A DNA stretch of 64,000 nucleotides, from IMG/VR virus record IMGVR_UViG_3300049137_000157, positions 1 to 64,000 of that record. The stretch is one strand, 5' to 3'. The translations under genes were made by a program, and so were the position numbers. Under the pieces are notes generated by a model. It saw only the letters and a list, made by a program, of their open reading frames with translations. It had not been told where the DNA came from and did not search any database. Position 1 is the stretch's first letter. Each line of letters opens with the position of its first letter. Source of the stretch: a virus. Positions 33,272 through 37,553 of this stretch are shown piece by piece.

Positions 33272-33475
33272 TCAGACAGTGCTGACGTCAGCCGCCTGGG
33301 GACCCTTCGAACCCTGCTCCACCTGGAAGTAGACGCGCTGCCCCTCTTCGAGACTGCGGTACCCACCACCCTGGATGGCGGAGTAGTGGACGAAGACGTC
33401 CTTCCCGCCCCCGTCCGGGGTGATGAAGCCGAAACCCTTCTCGGCGTTGAACCACTTCACGCTGCCCTGCGGCAT
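33272..33475 (-). CDS. csp: cold-shock protein (CSD)
   Basis: [15 protein letters not shown] (RNP1) and DVFVHYSAI (RNP2), 67 aa. Confidence 0.97.
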
Positions 33476-33674
33476 GTCAGTCCTCACACATTGCTCGTTG
33501 GAAACCCCGGGGAAGAGTGACGCGAAACCCACGAACACCAAACTCGGAGTGCTCTGAAATCGTATCGACGATCCCCGACATGACCAGCGTAAAGATCAGA
33601 GGGAATCACGCCACCCACTGTTTCCTCACAAGCGAATGTCCCGACTGGTGAAGATTCTCCCAAAAACGTGCGGA

Positions 33675-33749: not shown

Positions 33750-35399
33750 TCAGGACATCCACGGCCAGTGGGCGTTGCGCCCCGACTCCAGCAGCGGAAT
33801 CATCCGGAACGCGGCGTCGGTGAGACCGCCGAACGTGTGCCGGTTGCCCTTGCCCGACGGACCGTGACCTGCCTGGTAGCCCGCGAGGTTCCAGGTGTAC
33901 ACCGGAATGTTCTTCGGGACCTGCTCGGTCGGGTCACCGCCGTGGGCGCTGTCGGCCTGCTCGTCCGTGATGATGACGACCCGGTCGTGTCGGGCGAACT
34001 TCTCCTGGACCGCAAGTGCGGTCGCGGTGCCGCCGCCGAGGAACCAGCCGCCGTCCTTCCACCGGCCCACCGCTCGCAGCAGGGACTCGCCCCGCTTGAG
34101 CGGGAAGTCCTTGGTGTTCGCCCCGGGTAGGTCGTTCCAGTACCGCTGGGTCGAGGAGAACGACACGACGTCCGCCGAGGCGCAGCGCTGTCCCAGGGCG
34201 ATACCGAACAGGGCGGCGGCGTCCCACCGCATGAGGCTGCCGTCCTTCGAGAAGGCTCCCTTCATGGACGTCGAGGTGTCGACCAGGATCAGCGTCCGCC
34301 CCTTCAGCTCGGGCACGTTGGCCAGCGAGTGACCGAGCGCCTTCTCCAGCGGGTAGCCCCAGCGCAGCGACGGGGCCGCCTGGTATGCCGAGTAGAACCG
34401 CATCGGGAACTGCTTGGACCGGGCAACTTCGGCCGGATCGGCGAGCTTCTTCGAGACCAGTTCCGCCGACTCGTCCGGCACACCCGACTCGTCGAAGTTC
34501 CGCAGGTTCCGCAGCAGCGCCATGTAGCCCATCGACGGGATCATCGACTGCCACAGGTCGCTCTTGTTGACCTTCGAACCGAGGGCGGACAGGACGTCCT
34601 CCCAGGTGAGTCCGGAAGCCTTCAGAGCGGCGGGGTCGAGGAGGCGGGCGAGGGTCTCGTGCTTGTCCGCCACGGTCCCGTCGATCACCTGCTGCGTCTC
34701 GCTGCGCCACCGGCGCTCACTGCGGAGCATGGCCAGCGAAGCCGGAAGCGGAGCCTCGTTGCCCTTGCTCTTGTGGTCGAGGATGTAGCCGAACAGTTCT
34801 CGCTGTCGCTGGTCGAGCGGGCTCGGGTGGACGATCCGCAGGGCGTCGGCGAACTTGACGTTGTTCTTGGCCGAGTCGTACTTGAGCCAGTTTCGCTCCG
34901 TGTACATTCGGCCGATCGCCGCCTCCAGGCCCTTGTACACCGCCGTGTAGCGCCGGGGCTTCGCCTTGCCTGCGATCGAGAACCAGTAGGCGAGGAACTC
35001 ACCCACCTCGTCCGGCCGCTGGAGCGAGCCGTCGATCATCTCGGCGATGCCGTCGTAGCGGTGGGCGTCGGCCAGCACCTTGGCCACCTCAGCCGCGCCG
35101 ACGACGGCCGCCGTGCGCATGAAGCCCTCGGAGCGCAGCCAGGGCAGAAAGCCCTGAACCCAGGCCGGGTCGTCGAGTGCGACCTTCTGGATCAGTTCGG
35201 CGTAGCGGGTGTCACGCCTGTCGGCCTTCTCGTAGAAGGTGTTCTCGCCGACCATGTTGGCGAGGGCGAGCAGGTACAGCTCGCTCTTGGCGTCGCGGAG
35301 GTATCCCGTTCCGCCCTGGTGGTTGATGGTGGTGGTCCCGGTCGAGGTGACCGGCGAGGTGACGAGCGGCCGGGTCGACCGGGTGTTCAGCTTGGCCAT
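33750..35399 (-). CDS. rsr: Ro60/Rsr orthologue (TROVE + vWA domains)
   Basis: N-term NHQGGTGY...ELYLL...TFYE; MALLRNLRN; QFPMRFYSAY; vWA MIDAS ILVDTSTSM, VIITDEQ, YTWNLAGY. Confidence 0.92.
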   Translation of the reverse strand: MAKLNTRSTRPLVTSPVTSTGTTTINHQGGTGYLRDAKSELYLLALANMVGENTFYEKADRRDTRYAELIQKVALDDPAWVQGFLPWLRSEGFMRTAAVVGAAEVAKVLADAHRYDGIAEMIDGSLQRPDEVGEFLAYWFSIAGKAKPRRYTAVYKGLEAAIGRMYTERNWLKYDSAKNNVKFADALRIVHPSPLDQRQRELFGYILDHKSKGNEAPLPASLAMLRSERRWRSETQQVIDGTVADKHETLARLLDPAALKASGLTWEDVLSALGSKVNKSDLWQSMIPSMGYMALLRNLRNFDESGVPDESAELVSKKLADPAEVARSKQFPMRFYSAYQAAPSLRWGYPLEKALGHSLANVPELKGRTLILVDTSTSMKGAFSKDGSLMRWDAAALFGIALGQRCASADVVSFSSTQRYWNDLPGANTKDFPLKRGESLLRAVGRWKDGGWFLGGGTATALAVQEKFARHDRVVIITDEQADSAHGGDPTEQVPKNIPVYTWNLAGYQAGHGPSGKGNRHTFGGLTDAAFRMIPLLESGRNAHWPWMS

Positions 35400-35405
35400 G
35401 ATCTT

Positions 35406-35873
35406 CTAGTCCTTTCCGGTGGTCGCGTTCGGTGAGACCGTCGGGGCCTCCTTGAGTGCCTTCAGTTCGGTGAGCAGGGTGATGACGTGGGACATCAGTC
35501 CGGCATGCTCGGTCGCCCCCACTGCGAGAGCCTGGTCGCGGTGCTCGATGACCCCTTGCCGGACGCGATCGACATCTGCCGTAGTGGAGTCGATGCCAGT
35601 CGAAATTGCTGAAGACTTCGACGTTCCCACGTTGGGTGCTTCCCGGTAGGGCCGGAAAGCCGCAAGGGTCTCGATCCCCTCGACAATGACCCGGAGGTCT
35701 CCGTACAGATCCGAGAAGACGGCCTCGGCGTGCGGGTTTTGCAGGTAGTCGGGGTGCGGGTTCTGGGCGAGCGACCGCAATGCGCGCAGTTCCTCGTGGT
35801 CGACGGCGAGGAGGATGGTCTGCTCGTTCAGCGACTTGCCGGTGCTCTCGTCAGGGTTGGTGGCGTTCCTCAT
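35406..35873 (-). CDS. hypothetical protein between RNA ligase and Ro60
   Basis: RBS aggag; 6 bp from Ro60 start, 19 bp from ligase stop. Confidence 0.65.
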   Translation of the reverse strand: MRNATNPDESTGKSLNEQTILLAVDHEELRALRSLAQNPHPDYLQNPHAEAVFSDLYGDLRVIVEGIETLAAFRPYREAPNVGTSKSSAISTGIDSTTADVDRVRQGVIEHRDQALAVGATEHAGLMSHVITLLTELKALKEAPTVSPNATTGKD

Positions 35874-35892
35874 GGACAGCGTCTCCTGTTGA

Positions 35893-36648
35893 TCACTTGC
35901 TGCGCAGAGTGCGGGCGTAGTCCTCGAAGCGGGCCTTGGCAATGATCTTGCGGTCCTCGGTCCGCAGGACGATCCCTTCGGCCTGACCCTTCGCTCCGTC
36001 GTCGAGTGCGACACGGGTGGAGGGGAGGGCGTCGAGAAGCCACTGCTGCATGCCCGCGATGCCCTTGGGGAGAGCCTGGGCCGGGACGCGACCGAGTCGC
36101 GGGGTCAGGGGGATGTTGACGGCGAGGGCGTAGTTCAGCATCTCGGTCTCGGTGTGGAAGTCCTGTCCGCCGTTGTCCCGCCAGGAGGCGATGCGCTCCC
36201 GGTTCCAGGTGAGGACGTCCGGGTTGAAGCGCGCGATGTCGAAGAGGCGGTAGCCGGTGAGGCCGGTGGTGGAGTACTGCTTGGCTGCTGCGCCGATGCC
36301 CGAGCCGTAGACCTCCAGGAAGAGGGTGTAGATCTGACCCGTGTCGGTGGGCTTGGCGAGCTGCTCCGCAAGGGGCCGCAGGGCGCTGACGATGCCGAGC
36401 GTCGGGTTGGCCACCCGGTCACCCTTGGCGTACAGGAGTTCCTTGCGCGAACCGATGAGGTAGTCGCCGTCGGGGAAGAGGACGATGCGCCCGTTGGTGC
36501 CGTCGACCTTCTCGGTGAGGACGACATCGCCCTCGAACTCCGTGGCCTCGTCGGTGAGGCGGCCCTTGTTGCCCAGTGCGTGGTACGTGAAGATGCTCGG
36601 GTACTGCGTGGCCGAGTCGATCTCCGGAAGCCTGTTCGGATCGAACAT
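35893..36648 (-). CDS. ATP-dependent RNA ligase (Rnl2-like nucleotidyltransferase)
   Basis: Motif I TEKVDGTNGR, FLEVYG, YRLFDI, AEGIVLR, IAKAR. Confidence 0.8.
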   Translation of the reverse strand: MFDPNRLPEIDSATQYPSIFTYHALGNKGRLTDEATEFEGDVVLTEKVDGTNGRIVLFPDGDYLIGSRKELLYAKGDRVANPTLGIVSALRPLAEQLAKPTDTGQIYTLFLEVYGSGIGAAAKQYSTTGLTGYRLFDIARFNPDVLTWNRERIASWRDNGGQDFHTETEMLNYALAVNIPLTPRLGRVPAQALPKGIAGMQQWLLDALPSTRVALDDGAKGQAEGIVLRTEDRKIIAKARFEDYARTLRSK

Positions 36649-36674
36649 GTCCTTCTCCTTTTCCATCAGAACGC

Positions 36675-36710
36675 AGAACGCCCCCTCTCCCGAATTGGAG
36701 AGGGGGCGCT
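36675..36710 (-). terminator. hairpin between ncRNA array and ligase
   Basis: 12-bp stem cgccccctctcc/ggagagggggcg. Confidence 0.55.
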
Positions 36711-36718
36711 TCCTGTGG

Positions 36719-36879
36719 TGCGAGGACGAAGTGACCGGCTGAAAAAGTCGGCCCCGGCGTGTGGAGTCTGATGCTCTACCAATTGAGCTACGGGCAGCTT
36801 GGCTGCTCGACGGGACTTGAACCCGCAACCGCCAGAGTGAAGTATCCGGAACCTGCGCTCCGGTCACCACGTCCTCGCA
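36719..36879 (-). ncRNA. yrlA: YrlA-like Y RNA with circularly permuted tRNA domain
   Basis: Ends pair (ugcgaggac/guccucgca; gugaccgg/ccggucac). Order inside: ucugg, T arm GCGGG-UUCAAGU-CCCGU, acceptor stem closed by CAA loop, UA, D arm GCUC-AAUUGGUA-GAGC, ucaga; upstream of Ro60. Confidence 0.85.
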
Positions 36880-36886
36880 TCACAGC

Positions 36887-37041
36887 TTCACAGATCCAGA
36901 GGAGCCACCGGCTGAAAGATGAGCCCCGGCGTTTGCCCCGTGCCAGATTTGGGCGTTGACGGATTCGAACCGTTCCATTTCTTGTTTCAGGAAGAAGTAA
37001 CCGTTGCTGCGGCACTCCGGTAACTCTTCTGAACCTGTGAA
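36887..37041 (-). ncRNA. second Y-RNA-like unit with T-arm only
   Basis: Terminal stem uucacag/cugugaa; shared ccggagug...guuacuuc and ggc...cuuucagccgg motifs; T arm ACGG-UUCGAAU-CCGU at 36959-36973. Confidence 0.7.
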
Positions 37042-37046
37042 GTCGA

Positions 37047-37123
37047 GCGCCCCCCGGCTGAAAAGTCGGCCTCGGTCTAATTTCACCGAAGAAGTATCCG
37101 AAGCCTGCGCTCCGGGGGTGCAC
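37047..37123 (-). ncRNA. third, minimal Y-RNA-like unit
   Basis: cccccgg/ccggggg stem; ccggagcgcagg..cggauacuuc and gccgacuuuucagccgg motifs nearly identical to unit 1; short hairpin insert. Confidence 0.65.
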
Positions 37124-37129
37124 TAAGAA

Positions 37130-37158
37130 CACTAGGCCATTCGACAGGCCACCACAAC
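37130..37158 (-). promoter_or_regulatory. putative promoter of Y RNA array
   Basis: Minus strand TTGTGG-N17-TAGTGT about 6 nt before unit 3; overlaps half-site GGCCTAG. Confidence 0.5.
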
Positions 37159-37217
37159 TCGTTTTACGAATAGTCTGCCAACCTGGCCCGGTGGGCCGGA
37201 GGTCTCTTGATCGCCCG

Positions 37218-37553
37218 TCAGGCGACGATCAGGTACGTTGCCTCGGCATCCGTCACGGTGAAGGCCCGCTTCAGATCGGGTGTCACAGCGGCGAGGACCT
37301 CTTGCCGTTCGTCGTAGCACGAGACGAGGAGCTGCATGCACCCCGGGCACAGCCGGGCCAGCACGTCATCCCGGATCCGGGCCAGTCGGCTCTTCGACGC
37401 ACAGGCGTCACACACGATCGACCGAGGGTACGCCATGACCATCACCCGGTCGTCGTACGTCGCGTGCGCGACGAGCCGGATCATCTCGGTCCCGTGGTCG
37501 CCCTCGTCGAGCCACTTCTGTACGGCGTCGCGCAGATCGGTCCTCTTGCCCAT
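37218..37553 (-). CDS. hypothetical protein
   Basis: RBS gaggaag; CxxC pairs. Confidence 0.6.
   Translation of the reverse strand: MGKRTDLRDAVQKWLDEGDHGTEMIRLVAHATYDDRVMVMAYPRSIVCDACASKSRLARIRDDVLARLCPGCMQLLVSCYDERQEVLAAVTPDLKRAFTVTDAEATYLIVA

What the first reader, a model, noticed from the sequence alone, without database searches (positions are those of the whole stretch)
36719..37123. Three tandem Y-like RNAs with a shared scaffold and interchangeable effector modules
Seen: three self-closing stems, each with CCGGAG(C/U)G...G(A/U)UACUUC at the 5' side and GGC...CUUU(U)CAGCCGG at the 3' side. The inserts differ: a short hairpin (37047-37123), an isolated T-arm with UUCGAAU loop (36887-37041), and a complete permuted tRNA (36719-36879). 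Inference: a polycistronic precursor processed into RNAs that share a Ro-binding end but recruit different partners. tRNA finders would probably miss two of the three.
Basis: partly seen in the sequence, partly recalled or inferred. Interest (0 to 1): 0.82.

Follow-up and report, generated by a model that had tools for sequence, protein, structure and literature searches.

The report
Phage Y-RNA array beside Ro60

Summary
Three abutting long-stem hairpin RNAs lie on the minus strand at about 37123-36713. They share a 5' block (CCGGAG(C/U)G..CAG..GG(A/U)UACUUC) and a 3' block (..CUUU(U)CAGCCGG). These motifs occur nowhere else in the 199-kb phage genome.

They sit 1.3 kb upstream of a TROVE/Ro60 gene on the same strand, with an ATP-type RNA ligase in between. 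Unit C matches Rfam YrlA (41.5 bits, E 1.7e-7, below the 69-bit cut-off) and is a circularly permuted tRNA-like domain. Unit B keeps only a T arm. Unit A is a plain hairpin.

The same A-B-C order followed by a terminator hairpin is conserved in Streptomyces phages JustBecause and Frankenweenie, with many compensatory changes. The same scaffold, in 1 to 6 copies, precedes 93 of 100 TROVE genes sampled from actinobacteria and viral contigs.

Published work already describes YrlA plus YrlB cut from one precursor in M. smegmatis. It also describes a T arm in YrlB, hairpin-type Y RNAs, and two Y-like RNAs upstream of a phage Ro60. Verdict: new member of a known kind. Ro binding, processing and function are inferred. 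Other first-reader notes of this scan already flagged this stretch on the same genome.

The parts
37129..37157 (-). Possible promoter (TTGTGG, 17 nt, TAGTGT). It would place the transcript start at about the first base of unit A.
Evidence: Read from the sequence. The consensus scan found no sigma-70-type site.
37047..37123 (-). Unit A: hairpin-type Y RNA (YrlB-like). It has a closing stem, a conserved internal loop, a second helix, AUACUUC, then a small UUC..GAA hairpin.
   Evidence: MFE -35.8 kcal/mol, z -3.2. Scaffold model R1 scores 58.1 bits, but unit A was in the training set. Homologous hairpin units occur in phages and actinobacteria.
36886..37042 (-). Unit B: Y RNA with a partial tRNA-like module. 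It has a V-like hairpin (UUCUU..AAGAA), a T arm (ACGG-UUCGAAU-CCGU) and a 3' hairpin of uncertain register. There is no acceptor mimic and no clear D arm.
   Evidence: about 25-bp closing stem. Conserved in JustBecause and Frankenweenie: 43 consensus pairs, 4 of them compensatory. R1 hits the 5' half at 20.6 bits. No Rfam match.
36713..36885 (-). Unit C: YrlA-type Y RNA, a scaffold plus a circularly permuted tRNA-like domain. The order is variable loop CGGUU, T arm, acceptor-like hairpin closed by CAA, U8-A9, D arm. The core is 36719-36879.
   Evidence: Rfam RF02553 YrlA matches 36748-36852(-) at 41.5 bits, E 1.7e-7, covering model positions 1-114. RNAalifold over 4 phages gives 54 pairs, 19 with compensatory change.
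36667..36708 (-). Terminator-like hairpin: 12-bp G+C-rich stem, AAUUCG loop, then a UUCUGCGUUCUG tail. It lies between the array and the ligase gene.
   Evidence: Sequence. The same position in JustBecause, Frankenweenie and Satis holds a G+C hairpin followed by a U run. The scan tool did not flag it in the window because the tail has too few U.
35893..36648 (-). ATP-dependent RNA ligase gene (251 aa), with the ribosome-binding site AAGGAG upstream.
   Evidence: Pfam PF09414 at E 2.7e-14. PHROG 548 RNA ligase. No solved relative found by sequence.
35406..35891 (-). Unknown ORF (about 155-160 aa) between the ligase and Ro60 genes.
   Evidence: No Pfam or PHROG match. Absent from JustBecause, where the ligase and Ro60 genes are adjacent.
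33750..35399 (-). Ro60/TROVE protein gene (549 aa), the presumed binding partner of the three RNAs.
   Evidence: Pfam PF05731 TROVE at E 3e-16. PHROG 850 at E 3e-48. The closest solved structure is Thermus phage phiLo Ro60, 9KOP/9L5Y, at E 4e-28.
33272..33541 (-). Cold-shock-domain protein gene just downstream of Ro60.
   Evidence: Pfam PF00313 CSD at E 2e-31.

Best explanation
This is an array of three bacterial-type Y RNAs: one YrlA-like and two YrlB-like. It belongs to the Ro60 module of a roughly 199-kb Streptomyces-type phage.

Shown here:
- Three abutting hairpin RNAs share one scaffold: a long closing stem, a conserved internal loop (5' (A/U)GCG-N-AG, 3' pyrimidine-rich CUUUU-YAG), a second helix, and (A/U)UACUUC.
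- The scaffold is conserved upstream of Ro60 genes across actinobacteria and their phages.
- Its helices covary.
- The distal ends differ: plain hairpin, T arm only, and full permuted tRNA.

Inferred:
- The array is made as one transcript, from a weak promoter near 37157-37129 to the hairpin at 36708-36679.
- The transcript is cut at the bases of the long stems.
- Each RNA binds the phage Ro60 through the common end.
- The distal module decides what else the particle touches. By precedent this is host PNPase or other exoribonucleases; for the tRNA-like module, tRNA-recognising enzymes.
- With the adjacent RNA ligase and cold-shock protein, the likely job is RNA surveillance or repair during infection, possibly countering host RNA-cleaving defences.
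For: Context: a TROVE gene and an RNA ligase gene lie on the same strand downstream. The nearest solved homologue is a phage Ro60 shown to bind two upstream Y-like RNAs and host PNPase (PMC12135203).

Family match: Rfam YrlA hits unit C at E 1.7e-7. A chromosomal Rhodococcus jostii YrlA candidate beside its TROVE gene scores no better (39.5 bits), nor do other phage copies (36-47 bits).

Conservation of the array:
- The A-B-C order plus a terminator hairpin is kept in JustBecause and Frankenweenie at about 70% identity.
- Satis has A plus two full tRNA-like units.

Covariation:
- 19 compensatory pairs in unit C.
- For the scaffold, the covariation score is 0.246 against 0.147 in shuffles (0/500) and at most 0.147 when partners are slid.
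- Cognate closing stems beat permuted pairings at z = -6.7.

Scaffold distribution:
- The [AT]TAC[TC]TC motif lies within 1.5 kb upstream, same strand, in 93 of 100 TROVE loci, at 28-fold enrichment.
- Copy numbers range from 1 to 6.
- The 5' block sits exactly 14 nt before UUAC in 134 of 197 units.

Precedent (PMC4201824): M. smegmatis YrlA and YrlB are both upstream of rsr, are processed from one precursor, and YrlB has a T arm. Hairpin-type second Y RNAs occur in three species.
Against: - No expression, processing or binding data exist for this phage.
- The promoter is weak and the scan tool did not call it.
- The terminator tail is U-poor.
- The Rfam score is below the gathering cut-off.
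- The strict published motif GNCGAAN0-1G is absent from all three units.
- The RNA ligase is not always linked: Frankenweenie and Satis lack it at this position. The repair reading is therefore weaker than the Y-RNA reading.
Confidence: 0.85

Rival explanations
1. The structured array is mainly a cis-acting leader of the ligase-ORF-Ro60-Csp operon. Ro60 would bind its own upstream RNA, and the hairpin at 36708-36679 would set how much read-through reaches the genes. The RNAs would then not act in trans.
For: Same strand, directly upstream, with a terminator-like hairpin whose U tract is imperfect, so read-through is plausible. In bacteria Y RNAs and rsr can share a transcript (PMC4201824).
Against: Characterised relatives accumulate as separate stable RNAs bound to Rsr (PMC4201824) and bind phage Ro60 in trans (PMC12135203). 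Three different distal modules with tRNA-like tertiary signatures are not needed for attenuation. The two roles are not exclusive.
Confidence: 0.07
2. The tRNA-like units act mostly on their own as uncleavable decoys or sponges for host tRNA-targeting nucleases or tRNA-modifying enzymes. Ro60 would serve only to stabilise them.
For: Unit C keeps T-loop, D-loop GG, U8-A14 and A15-U48 type positions but has no anticodon loop and a sealed acceptor end. In phages Alone3 and BRock the units are interspersed in large tRNA clusters. An RNA ligase lies next door.
Against: Unit A has no tRNA-like part, yet it is the best-conserved member of the array. The same module types occur in bacterial chromosomes, where counter-defence makes little sense. 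There is no direct evidence.
Confidence: 0.1
3. The units are decayed tRNA genes or tRNA-derived repeats with no function of their own.
For: GenBank relatives annotate unit B as tRNA-Cys and unit C as tRNA-Pro. Related phages carry tRNA genes nearby.
Against: ARAGORN finds no tRNA here. The acceptor is closed by a loop and the order of arms is permuted. The non-tRNA scaffold is conserved and covaries across 100 loci. Decay would not preserve 25-bp closing stems through compensatory changes.
Confidence: 0.02

Closest known systems
Mycobacterium smegmatis YrlA and YrlB (Chen et al. 2014, PMC4201824)
   Same: Two or more Y RNAs lie upstream of the Ro60 gene on the same strand and are made from one precursor. 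One has a full tRNA-like domain (T arm, acceptor mimic, D arm). Another has only a T arm. A UUAC (YUAY) block precedes the V region.
   Different: Here there are three units rather than two, in a phage, and the closing stems are very long. I could not retrieve the M. smegmatis sequences for direct alignment. Rsr binding and RNase P/CCA processing are shown there and untested here. The window's acceptor mimic has a mismatch, so RNase P cleavage is uncertain.
Salmonella Typhimurium YrlA/YrlB and Rfam family RF02553
   Same: Unit C aligns over the whole YrlA model, with T, acceptor-like and D stem-loops in the same order. A hairpin-type second Y RNA exists there too.
   Different: The score of 41.5 bits is below the 69-bit cut-off. 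The V stem of the model is missing in unit C. In Salmonella the RNAs lie 3' of rsr in an operon with RtcB/RtcA; here they lie 5' and the ligase is an ATP-type PF09414 enzyme.
Thermus phage phiLo Ro60 with Yrl1 and Yrl2 (PMC12135203; PDB 9KOP, 9L5Y)
   Same: A phage Ro60 with several Y-like RNAs encoded just upstream, built as stem, internal bulge, stem. Its protein is the closest solved relative of the window's Ro60 (E 4e-28). It forms complexes with host PNPase.
   Different: That phage has two RNAs defined by a CGAA bulge motif. The window has CGCA or CCGCA in that place and adds tRNA-like modules. The host lineage is unrelated.
Mycobacteriophage YrlA-like RNAs (22 phages in Chen et al. 2014)
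   Same: Actinophage-encoded YrlA next to a phage Ro60 gene.
   Different: Only the YrlA-type unit was reported by their covariance search. The accompanying hairpin and T-arm units, and arrays of 3-6 units, are not described in the papers I could read.
Deinococcus radiodurans Yrn1/Yrn2 and metazoan Y RNAs
   Same: A modular plan: a Ro-binding stem formed by the two ends, and a distal module that recruits partners (PNPase for Yrn1).
   Different: A different Ro-binding helix (GGUCCGA type, both strands conserved). No Rfam Y_RNA match here at E up to 10. Considered an independent origin (PMC4201824).

Membership tests
Bacterial Y RNA, YrlA type (Rfam RF02553; Chen et al. 2014) | Encoded within about 4 kb of a Ro60/TROVE gene, on the same strand | tested here: met
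   The array lies at 36713-37123(-) and the TROVE gene at 33750-35399(-). It is the only TROVE match in the phage genome.
Bacterial Y RNA, YrlA type (Rfam RF02553; Chen et al. 2014) | Central tRNA-like domain in the order T arm, acceptor-like stem-loop, D arm | tested here: met
   Met for unit C only. The cmscan alignment covers model positions 1-114. The T loop is UUCAAGU and the D loop AAUUGGUA, with UA before the D stem and an A15/U48-type pair possible (sequence). Units A and B do not meet this.
Bacterial Y RNA, YrlA type (Rfam RF02553; Chen et al. 2014) | Score at or above Rfam's gathering threshold (69 bits) | tested here: not met
   41.5 bits. The Rhodococcus jostii chromosomal copy beside its TROVE gene (39.5 bits) and other actinophage copies (36-47 bits) also fail, so the threshold is uninformative for this clade.
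Bacterial Y RNA, YrlA type (Rfam RF02553; Chen et al. 2014) | GNCGAAN0-1G motif near the 5' end (putative Rsr contact) | tested here: not met
   The strict motif is absent from all three units and present in only 5 of 197 units surveyed. A related block N-G-C/U-G-N-A/C/U-G/C is present in 181 of 197 units (UGCGCAG in 93, UGCGAAG in 25). The window has AGCGCAG (units A and C) and GUGCCGCAG (unit B).
Bacterial Y RNA, YrlA type (Rfam RF02553; Chen et al. 2014) | Conserved YUAY at the start of the V region | tested here: met
   UUAC in unit B and AUAC in units A and C. (A/U)UAC(U/C)UC is the most conserved block of the scaffold in 197 units.
Bacterial Y RNA, YrlA type (Rfam RF02553; Chen et al. 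2014) | Physical association with Ro60/Rsr; tRNA-type modifications | not testable with these tools
   Needs RIP or EMSA, and modification mapping.
[quoted passage not shown] | Encoded next to YrlA on the same strand, sharing the Ro-binding end, without a full tRNA-like domain | tested here: met
   Units A and B share the scaffold with C. A has a UUC..GAA hairpin and B has a T arm only. The same unit types sit beside YrlA-type units in many actinobacterial loci.
[quoted passage not shown] | Processed from a common precursor with YrlA | not testable with these tools
   Consistent features only: 0-4 nt between units and a single downstream terminator-like hairpin.
tRNA | Cloverleaf with an anticodon loop and free 5'/3' acceptor ends | tested here: not met
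   ARAGORN finds none in the window. No Rfam tRNA match. The acceptor is closed by a CAA loop and the strand ends fall at the anticodon position.
Metazoan/Deinococcus-type Y RNA (Rfam Y_RNA) | Conserved bulged Ro-binding helix of the GGUCCGA type | tested here: not met
   No Y_RNA match at E up to 10 in 36300-37500.

The most novel reading that the evidence does not exclude
The conserved scaffold ((A/U)GCG-N-AG, a fixed 14-nt spacing, GG-UUACUUC, and a pyrimidine-rich 3' strand) may be a usable signature for the second Y RNAs that earlier searches could not find. With it, Ro60 loci of actinobacteria and especially their phages would turn out to carry expandable cassettes of 2-6 Y RNAs with swappable distal modules. 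In some phages these are embedded in tRNA clusters. The phage expansions would serve as Ro60-stabilised decoys or adaptors against host tRNA/RNA-cleaving defences, not for housekeeping RNA decay.
Probability: 0.2. Interest if true: 0.6.

Novelty: new member of a known kind. Interest (0 to 1): 0.3.

Why it matters
The find adds a clean three-module example to the bacterial and phage Y-RNA family. It also exposes two practical problems. Rfam's YrlA threshold misses the actinobacterial and actinophage copies tested here. GenBank phage records label pieces of these RNAs as tRNA-Cys or tRNA-Pro.

The shared scaffold seen here could be made into a search model for the poorly catalogued YrlB-type partners. 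The link of a Y-RNA array to Ro60, an ATP-dependent RNA ligase and a cold-shock protein in a large phage gives a tractable system. It could be used in Streptomyces to ask what phage Ro60 particles do during infection. None of this changes the current picture of Y RNAs.

Tried and rejected
- M. smegmatis comparison. I tried to fetch the experimentally validated M. smegmatis YrlA locus using the published probe sequence. There was no exact match in genome contigs and none with up to 2 mismatches in 401 genomes of the Rhodococcus family sample. Direct alignment to the validated RNAs was therefore not done.
- Covariance model. Model R1, built from hairpin-type units, cannot span the large inserts. 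It finds only the 5' halves of B and C (20.6 and 17.7 bits) and misaligns their 3' strands. I did not use it for pair counts.
- Cross-locus arm test. Comparing cognate with non-cognate arms across loci was confounded by G+C differences: low-GC phages failed. I replaced it with within-array and permutation tests.
- First all-against-all duplex run timed out.
- Promoter and terminator scans. They found no promoter, and flagged only a local hairpin inside unit A and a plus-strand artefact. In JustBecause the conserved element upstream of unit A reads as a hairpin plus U run, not a clear promoter.
- MAFFT alignments of the short units have one-column register slips in both helices, so the pair counts are lower bounds.
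- Rejected readings: chance repeats, true tRNA genes, and REP-like elements.

Full report
**What is there**

The window is the first 64 kb of a 199,468-bp viral record with terminal repeats and 64% G+C. Its nearest GenBank relatives in this region are the Streptomyces phages Frankenweenie, JustBecause and Kela, at about 67-73% identity. The feature lies on the minus strand.

Read 5' to 3', there are three hairpin RNAs that touch each other:
- Unit A, 37123-37047.
- Unit B, 37042-36886.
- Unit C, 36885-36713, with its core at 36879-36719.

Each unit begins with CCGGAG(C/U)G, then CAG, then a short helix strand ending in GG, then (A/U)UACUUC. Each ends with the other strand of that helix, a pyrimidine run CUUU(U)CAG, and CCGG.

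The 3' ten-mer occurs three times in the whole phage genome, all here. A combined scaffold pattern finds no further convincing copy. The units fold better than shuffles, with z of -3.2, -2.1 and -1.6. With flanks, B and C close with stems of about 25 bp. Each 5' arm strongly prefers its own 3' partner within the array.

**Identity**

Downstream on the same strand lie, in order:
- a G+C-rich hairpin (36708-36679);
- an RNA ligase gene (PF09414; 35893-36648);
- an unknown ORF;
- a TROVE/Ro60 gene (33750-35399);
- a cold-shock-domain gene.

Rfam YrlA matches unit C over the full model at 41.5 bits, E 1.7e-7. This is below the 69-bit gathering score, so the default scan reports nothing.

The alignment and the sequence show a circularly permuted tRNA. 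The order is variable loop, T arm (UUCAAGU loop), an acceptor-like stem closed by a CAA loop, U-A, and a D arm with GG in its loop. The RNA ends fall where the anticodon stem would continue. This is the published YrlA architecture (PMC4201824). ARAGORN calls no tRNA.

Unit B keeps a T arm (UUCGAAU loop) preceded by a small UUCUU..AAGAA hairpin. It is followed by a hairpin whose register I could not settle. Unit A has only a small UUC..GAA hairpin and an A-rich strand.

**Comparative evidence**

JustBecause and Frankenweenie have the same three units in the same order, followed by a hairpin plus U run. Satis has a unit A and two full tRNA-like units. Alone3, BRock and the Gordonia phage VanLee carry 5, 4 and 4 scaffold units upstream of their Ro genes. 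In the first two these sit inside large tRNA clusters.

Pair-level support:
- RNAalifold on unit C from four phages gives 54 pairs, 19 with compensatory changes. These include nearly the whole 21-bp closing stem, the T stem and the acceptor-like stem.
- Unit B gives 43 pairs, 4 compensatory, from three sequences.

I then collected 100 further TROVE loci: 20 from viral contigs and 80 from actinobacterial genomes.
- The block [AT]TAC[TC]TC lies within 1.5 kb upstream on the gene's strand in 93 of them.
- Its density there is 1.27 per kb, against 0.046 per kb elsewhere in the same loci.
- Copy numbers are 1 (31 loci), 2 (42), 3 (13), 4 (6) and 6 (1).

In 197 units, a 5' block of the form N-G-C/U-G-N-A/C/U-G/C is present in 181. 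The commonest forms are UGCGCAG, UGCGAAG and UGCGUAG. The block lies exactly 14 nt before UUAC in 134 units. The bacterial consensus is CCCGG-UGCGCAGG-CAACGG-UUACUUC at the 5' side and CCGUCGCCGAYCUUGAUCUCGGG at the 3' side. The window's units are plainly versions of it.

Further tests of the scaffold:
- On an alignment of 17 hairpin-type units, the two scaffold helices are paired in 67.8% of cells, against 59.9% in shuffles (0/500).
- The covariation score is 0.246, against 0.147 in shuffles (0/500) and at most 0.147 when the partners are slid. Register slips in the MAFFT alignment make these lower bounds.
- Closing-stem strands match their own partners better than permuted ones (z = -6.7).
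- A covariance model of the scaffold ranks the three units as the top three hits in the window.

**What is known already**

Chen et al. 2014 (PMC4201824) found YrlA-like RNAs within 4 kb of Ro60 genes, on the same strand, in 254 bacteria and 22 phages. [quoted passage not shown] A 2025 study of Thermus phage phiLo found two Y-like RNAs upstream of a phage Ro60. It showed binding and complexes with host PNPase (PMC12135203). That protein is the nearest solved relative of the window's Ro60. A survey of jumbo phages lists TROVE proteins with RNA ligases as RNA-repair equipment (PMC7824862).

I found no paper describing arrays of three to six units in Streptomyces phages. That is a matter of number and host, not of kind.

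**Mechanism**

Shown: the anatomy, the linkage to Ro60, the conservation and the covariation.

Inferred:
- Transcription from about 37157-37129 (TTGTGG, 17 nt, TAGTGT). The scan tool did not call this site.
- Termination or pausing at 36708-36679.
- Cutting at the bases of the long stems.
- Binding of Ro60 to the shared end.
- Distal modules that recruit different partners.

The strict GNCGAAN0-1G motif is not present. Which part of the scaffold contacts Ro60 is therefore open; both the internal loop and the UUACUUC block are candidates.

The neighbouring ligase and cold-shock genes suggest RNA repair or surveillance during infection. However, the ligase is absent at this position in Frankenweenie and Satis. 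I give 0.85 to the Y-RNA array reading. I give much less to any specific function.

**Verdict**

It is a new member of a known kind. Useful by-products are the scaffold signature for YrlB-type RNAs, the under-sensitive Rfam threshold for this clade, and the mis-annotation of these units as tRNAs in GenBank phages. Other first-reader notes of this scan on the same genome reached the same module reading. I tested the parts I reuse.

Noticed in passing
L001:4554-4624 (JustBecause) and L002:4213-4303 (Frankenweenie): GenBank annotates part of unit B as tRNA-Cys and part of unit C as tRNA-Pro(tgg). Kela and Satis have nothing annotated at the same elements. These are Y-RNA units, not tRNA genes.
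   Followed up: yes
L025:5522-6320 (Alone3), L026:6555-7300 (BRock), L016 upstream of 5001: Arrays of 5, 4 and 6 scaffold units upstream of Ro genes. In Alone3 and BRock they are embedded in clusters of 20 or more tRNA genes, and one Alone3 unit is annotated tRNA-Ser(gct).
   Followed up: partly
window 35406-35891 (-): An ORF of about 155-160 aa lies between the RNA ligase and Ro60 genes, with no Pfam or PHROG match. JustBecause has no gene at this place. No end-healing enzyme (kinase or phosphatase) was found in the four genes tested from this block (ligase, unknown ORF, Ro60, Csp).
   Followed up: partly
window 33272-33541 (-): A cold-shock-domain protein gene (PF00313, E 2e-31) lies immediately downstream of Ro60 on the same strand.
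   Followed up: yes
whole genome G000, 88247-88330 (-): ARAGORN finds only one tRNA (Val-GAC, 84 nt as called) in the whole 199-kb phage, whereas relatives annotate several tRNAs 1-2 kb upstream of their Y arrays.
   Followed up: no
L025:3323-3555 and L026:4313-4476 (-): Sub-threshold matches to the manA RNA motif (47.8 and 49.7 bits against a cut-off of 55.2) lie between tRNA-Lys genes of Alone3 and BRock. There is also a tmRNA match in BRock at L026:372-452.
   Followed up: no
L108 (Rhodococcus jostii, G001:C47:53894-53955): The Rhodococcus jostii chromosomal YrlA candidate beside its TROVE gene scores only 39.5 bits against Rfam's 69-bit cut-off. The Rfam model therefore under-calls actinobacterial YrlA in general.
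   Followed up: partly
L001:4743-4765, and the same place in L002 and L024: A conserved hairpin plus UAAUGUUUUA lies just upstream of unit A in three phages. It reads both as a terminator of the upstream gene and as a possible -35/-10 pair (TTGCGA, 18 nt, TAATGT). It is not conserved in the window.
   Followed up: partly
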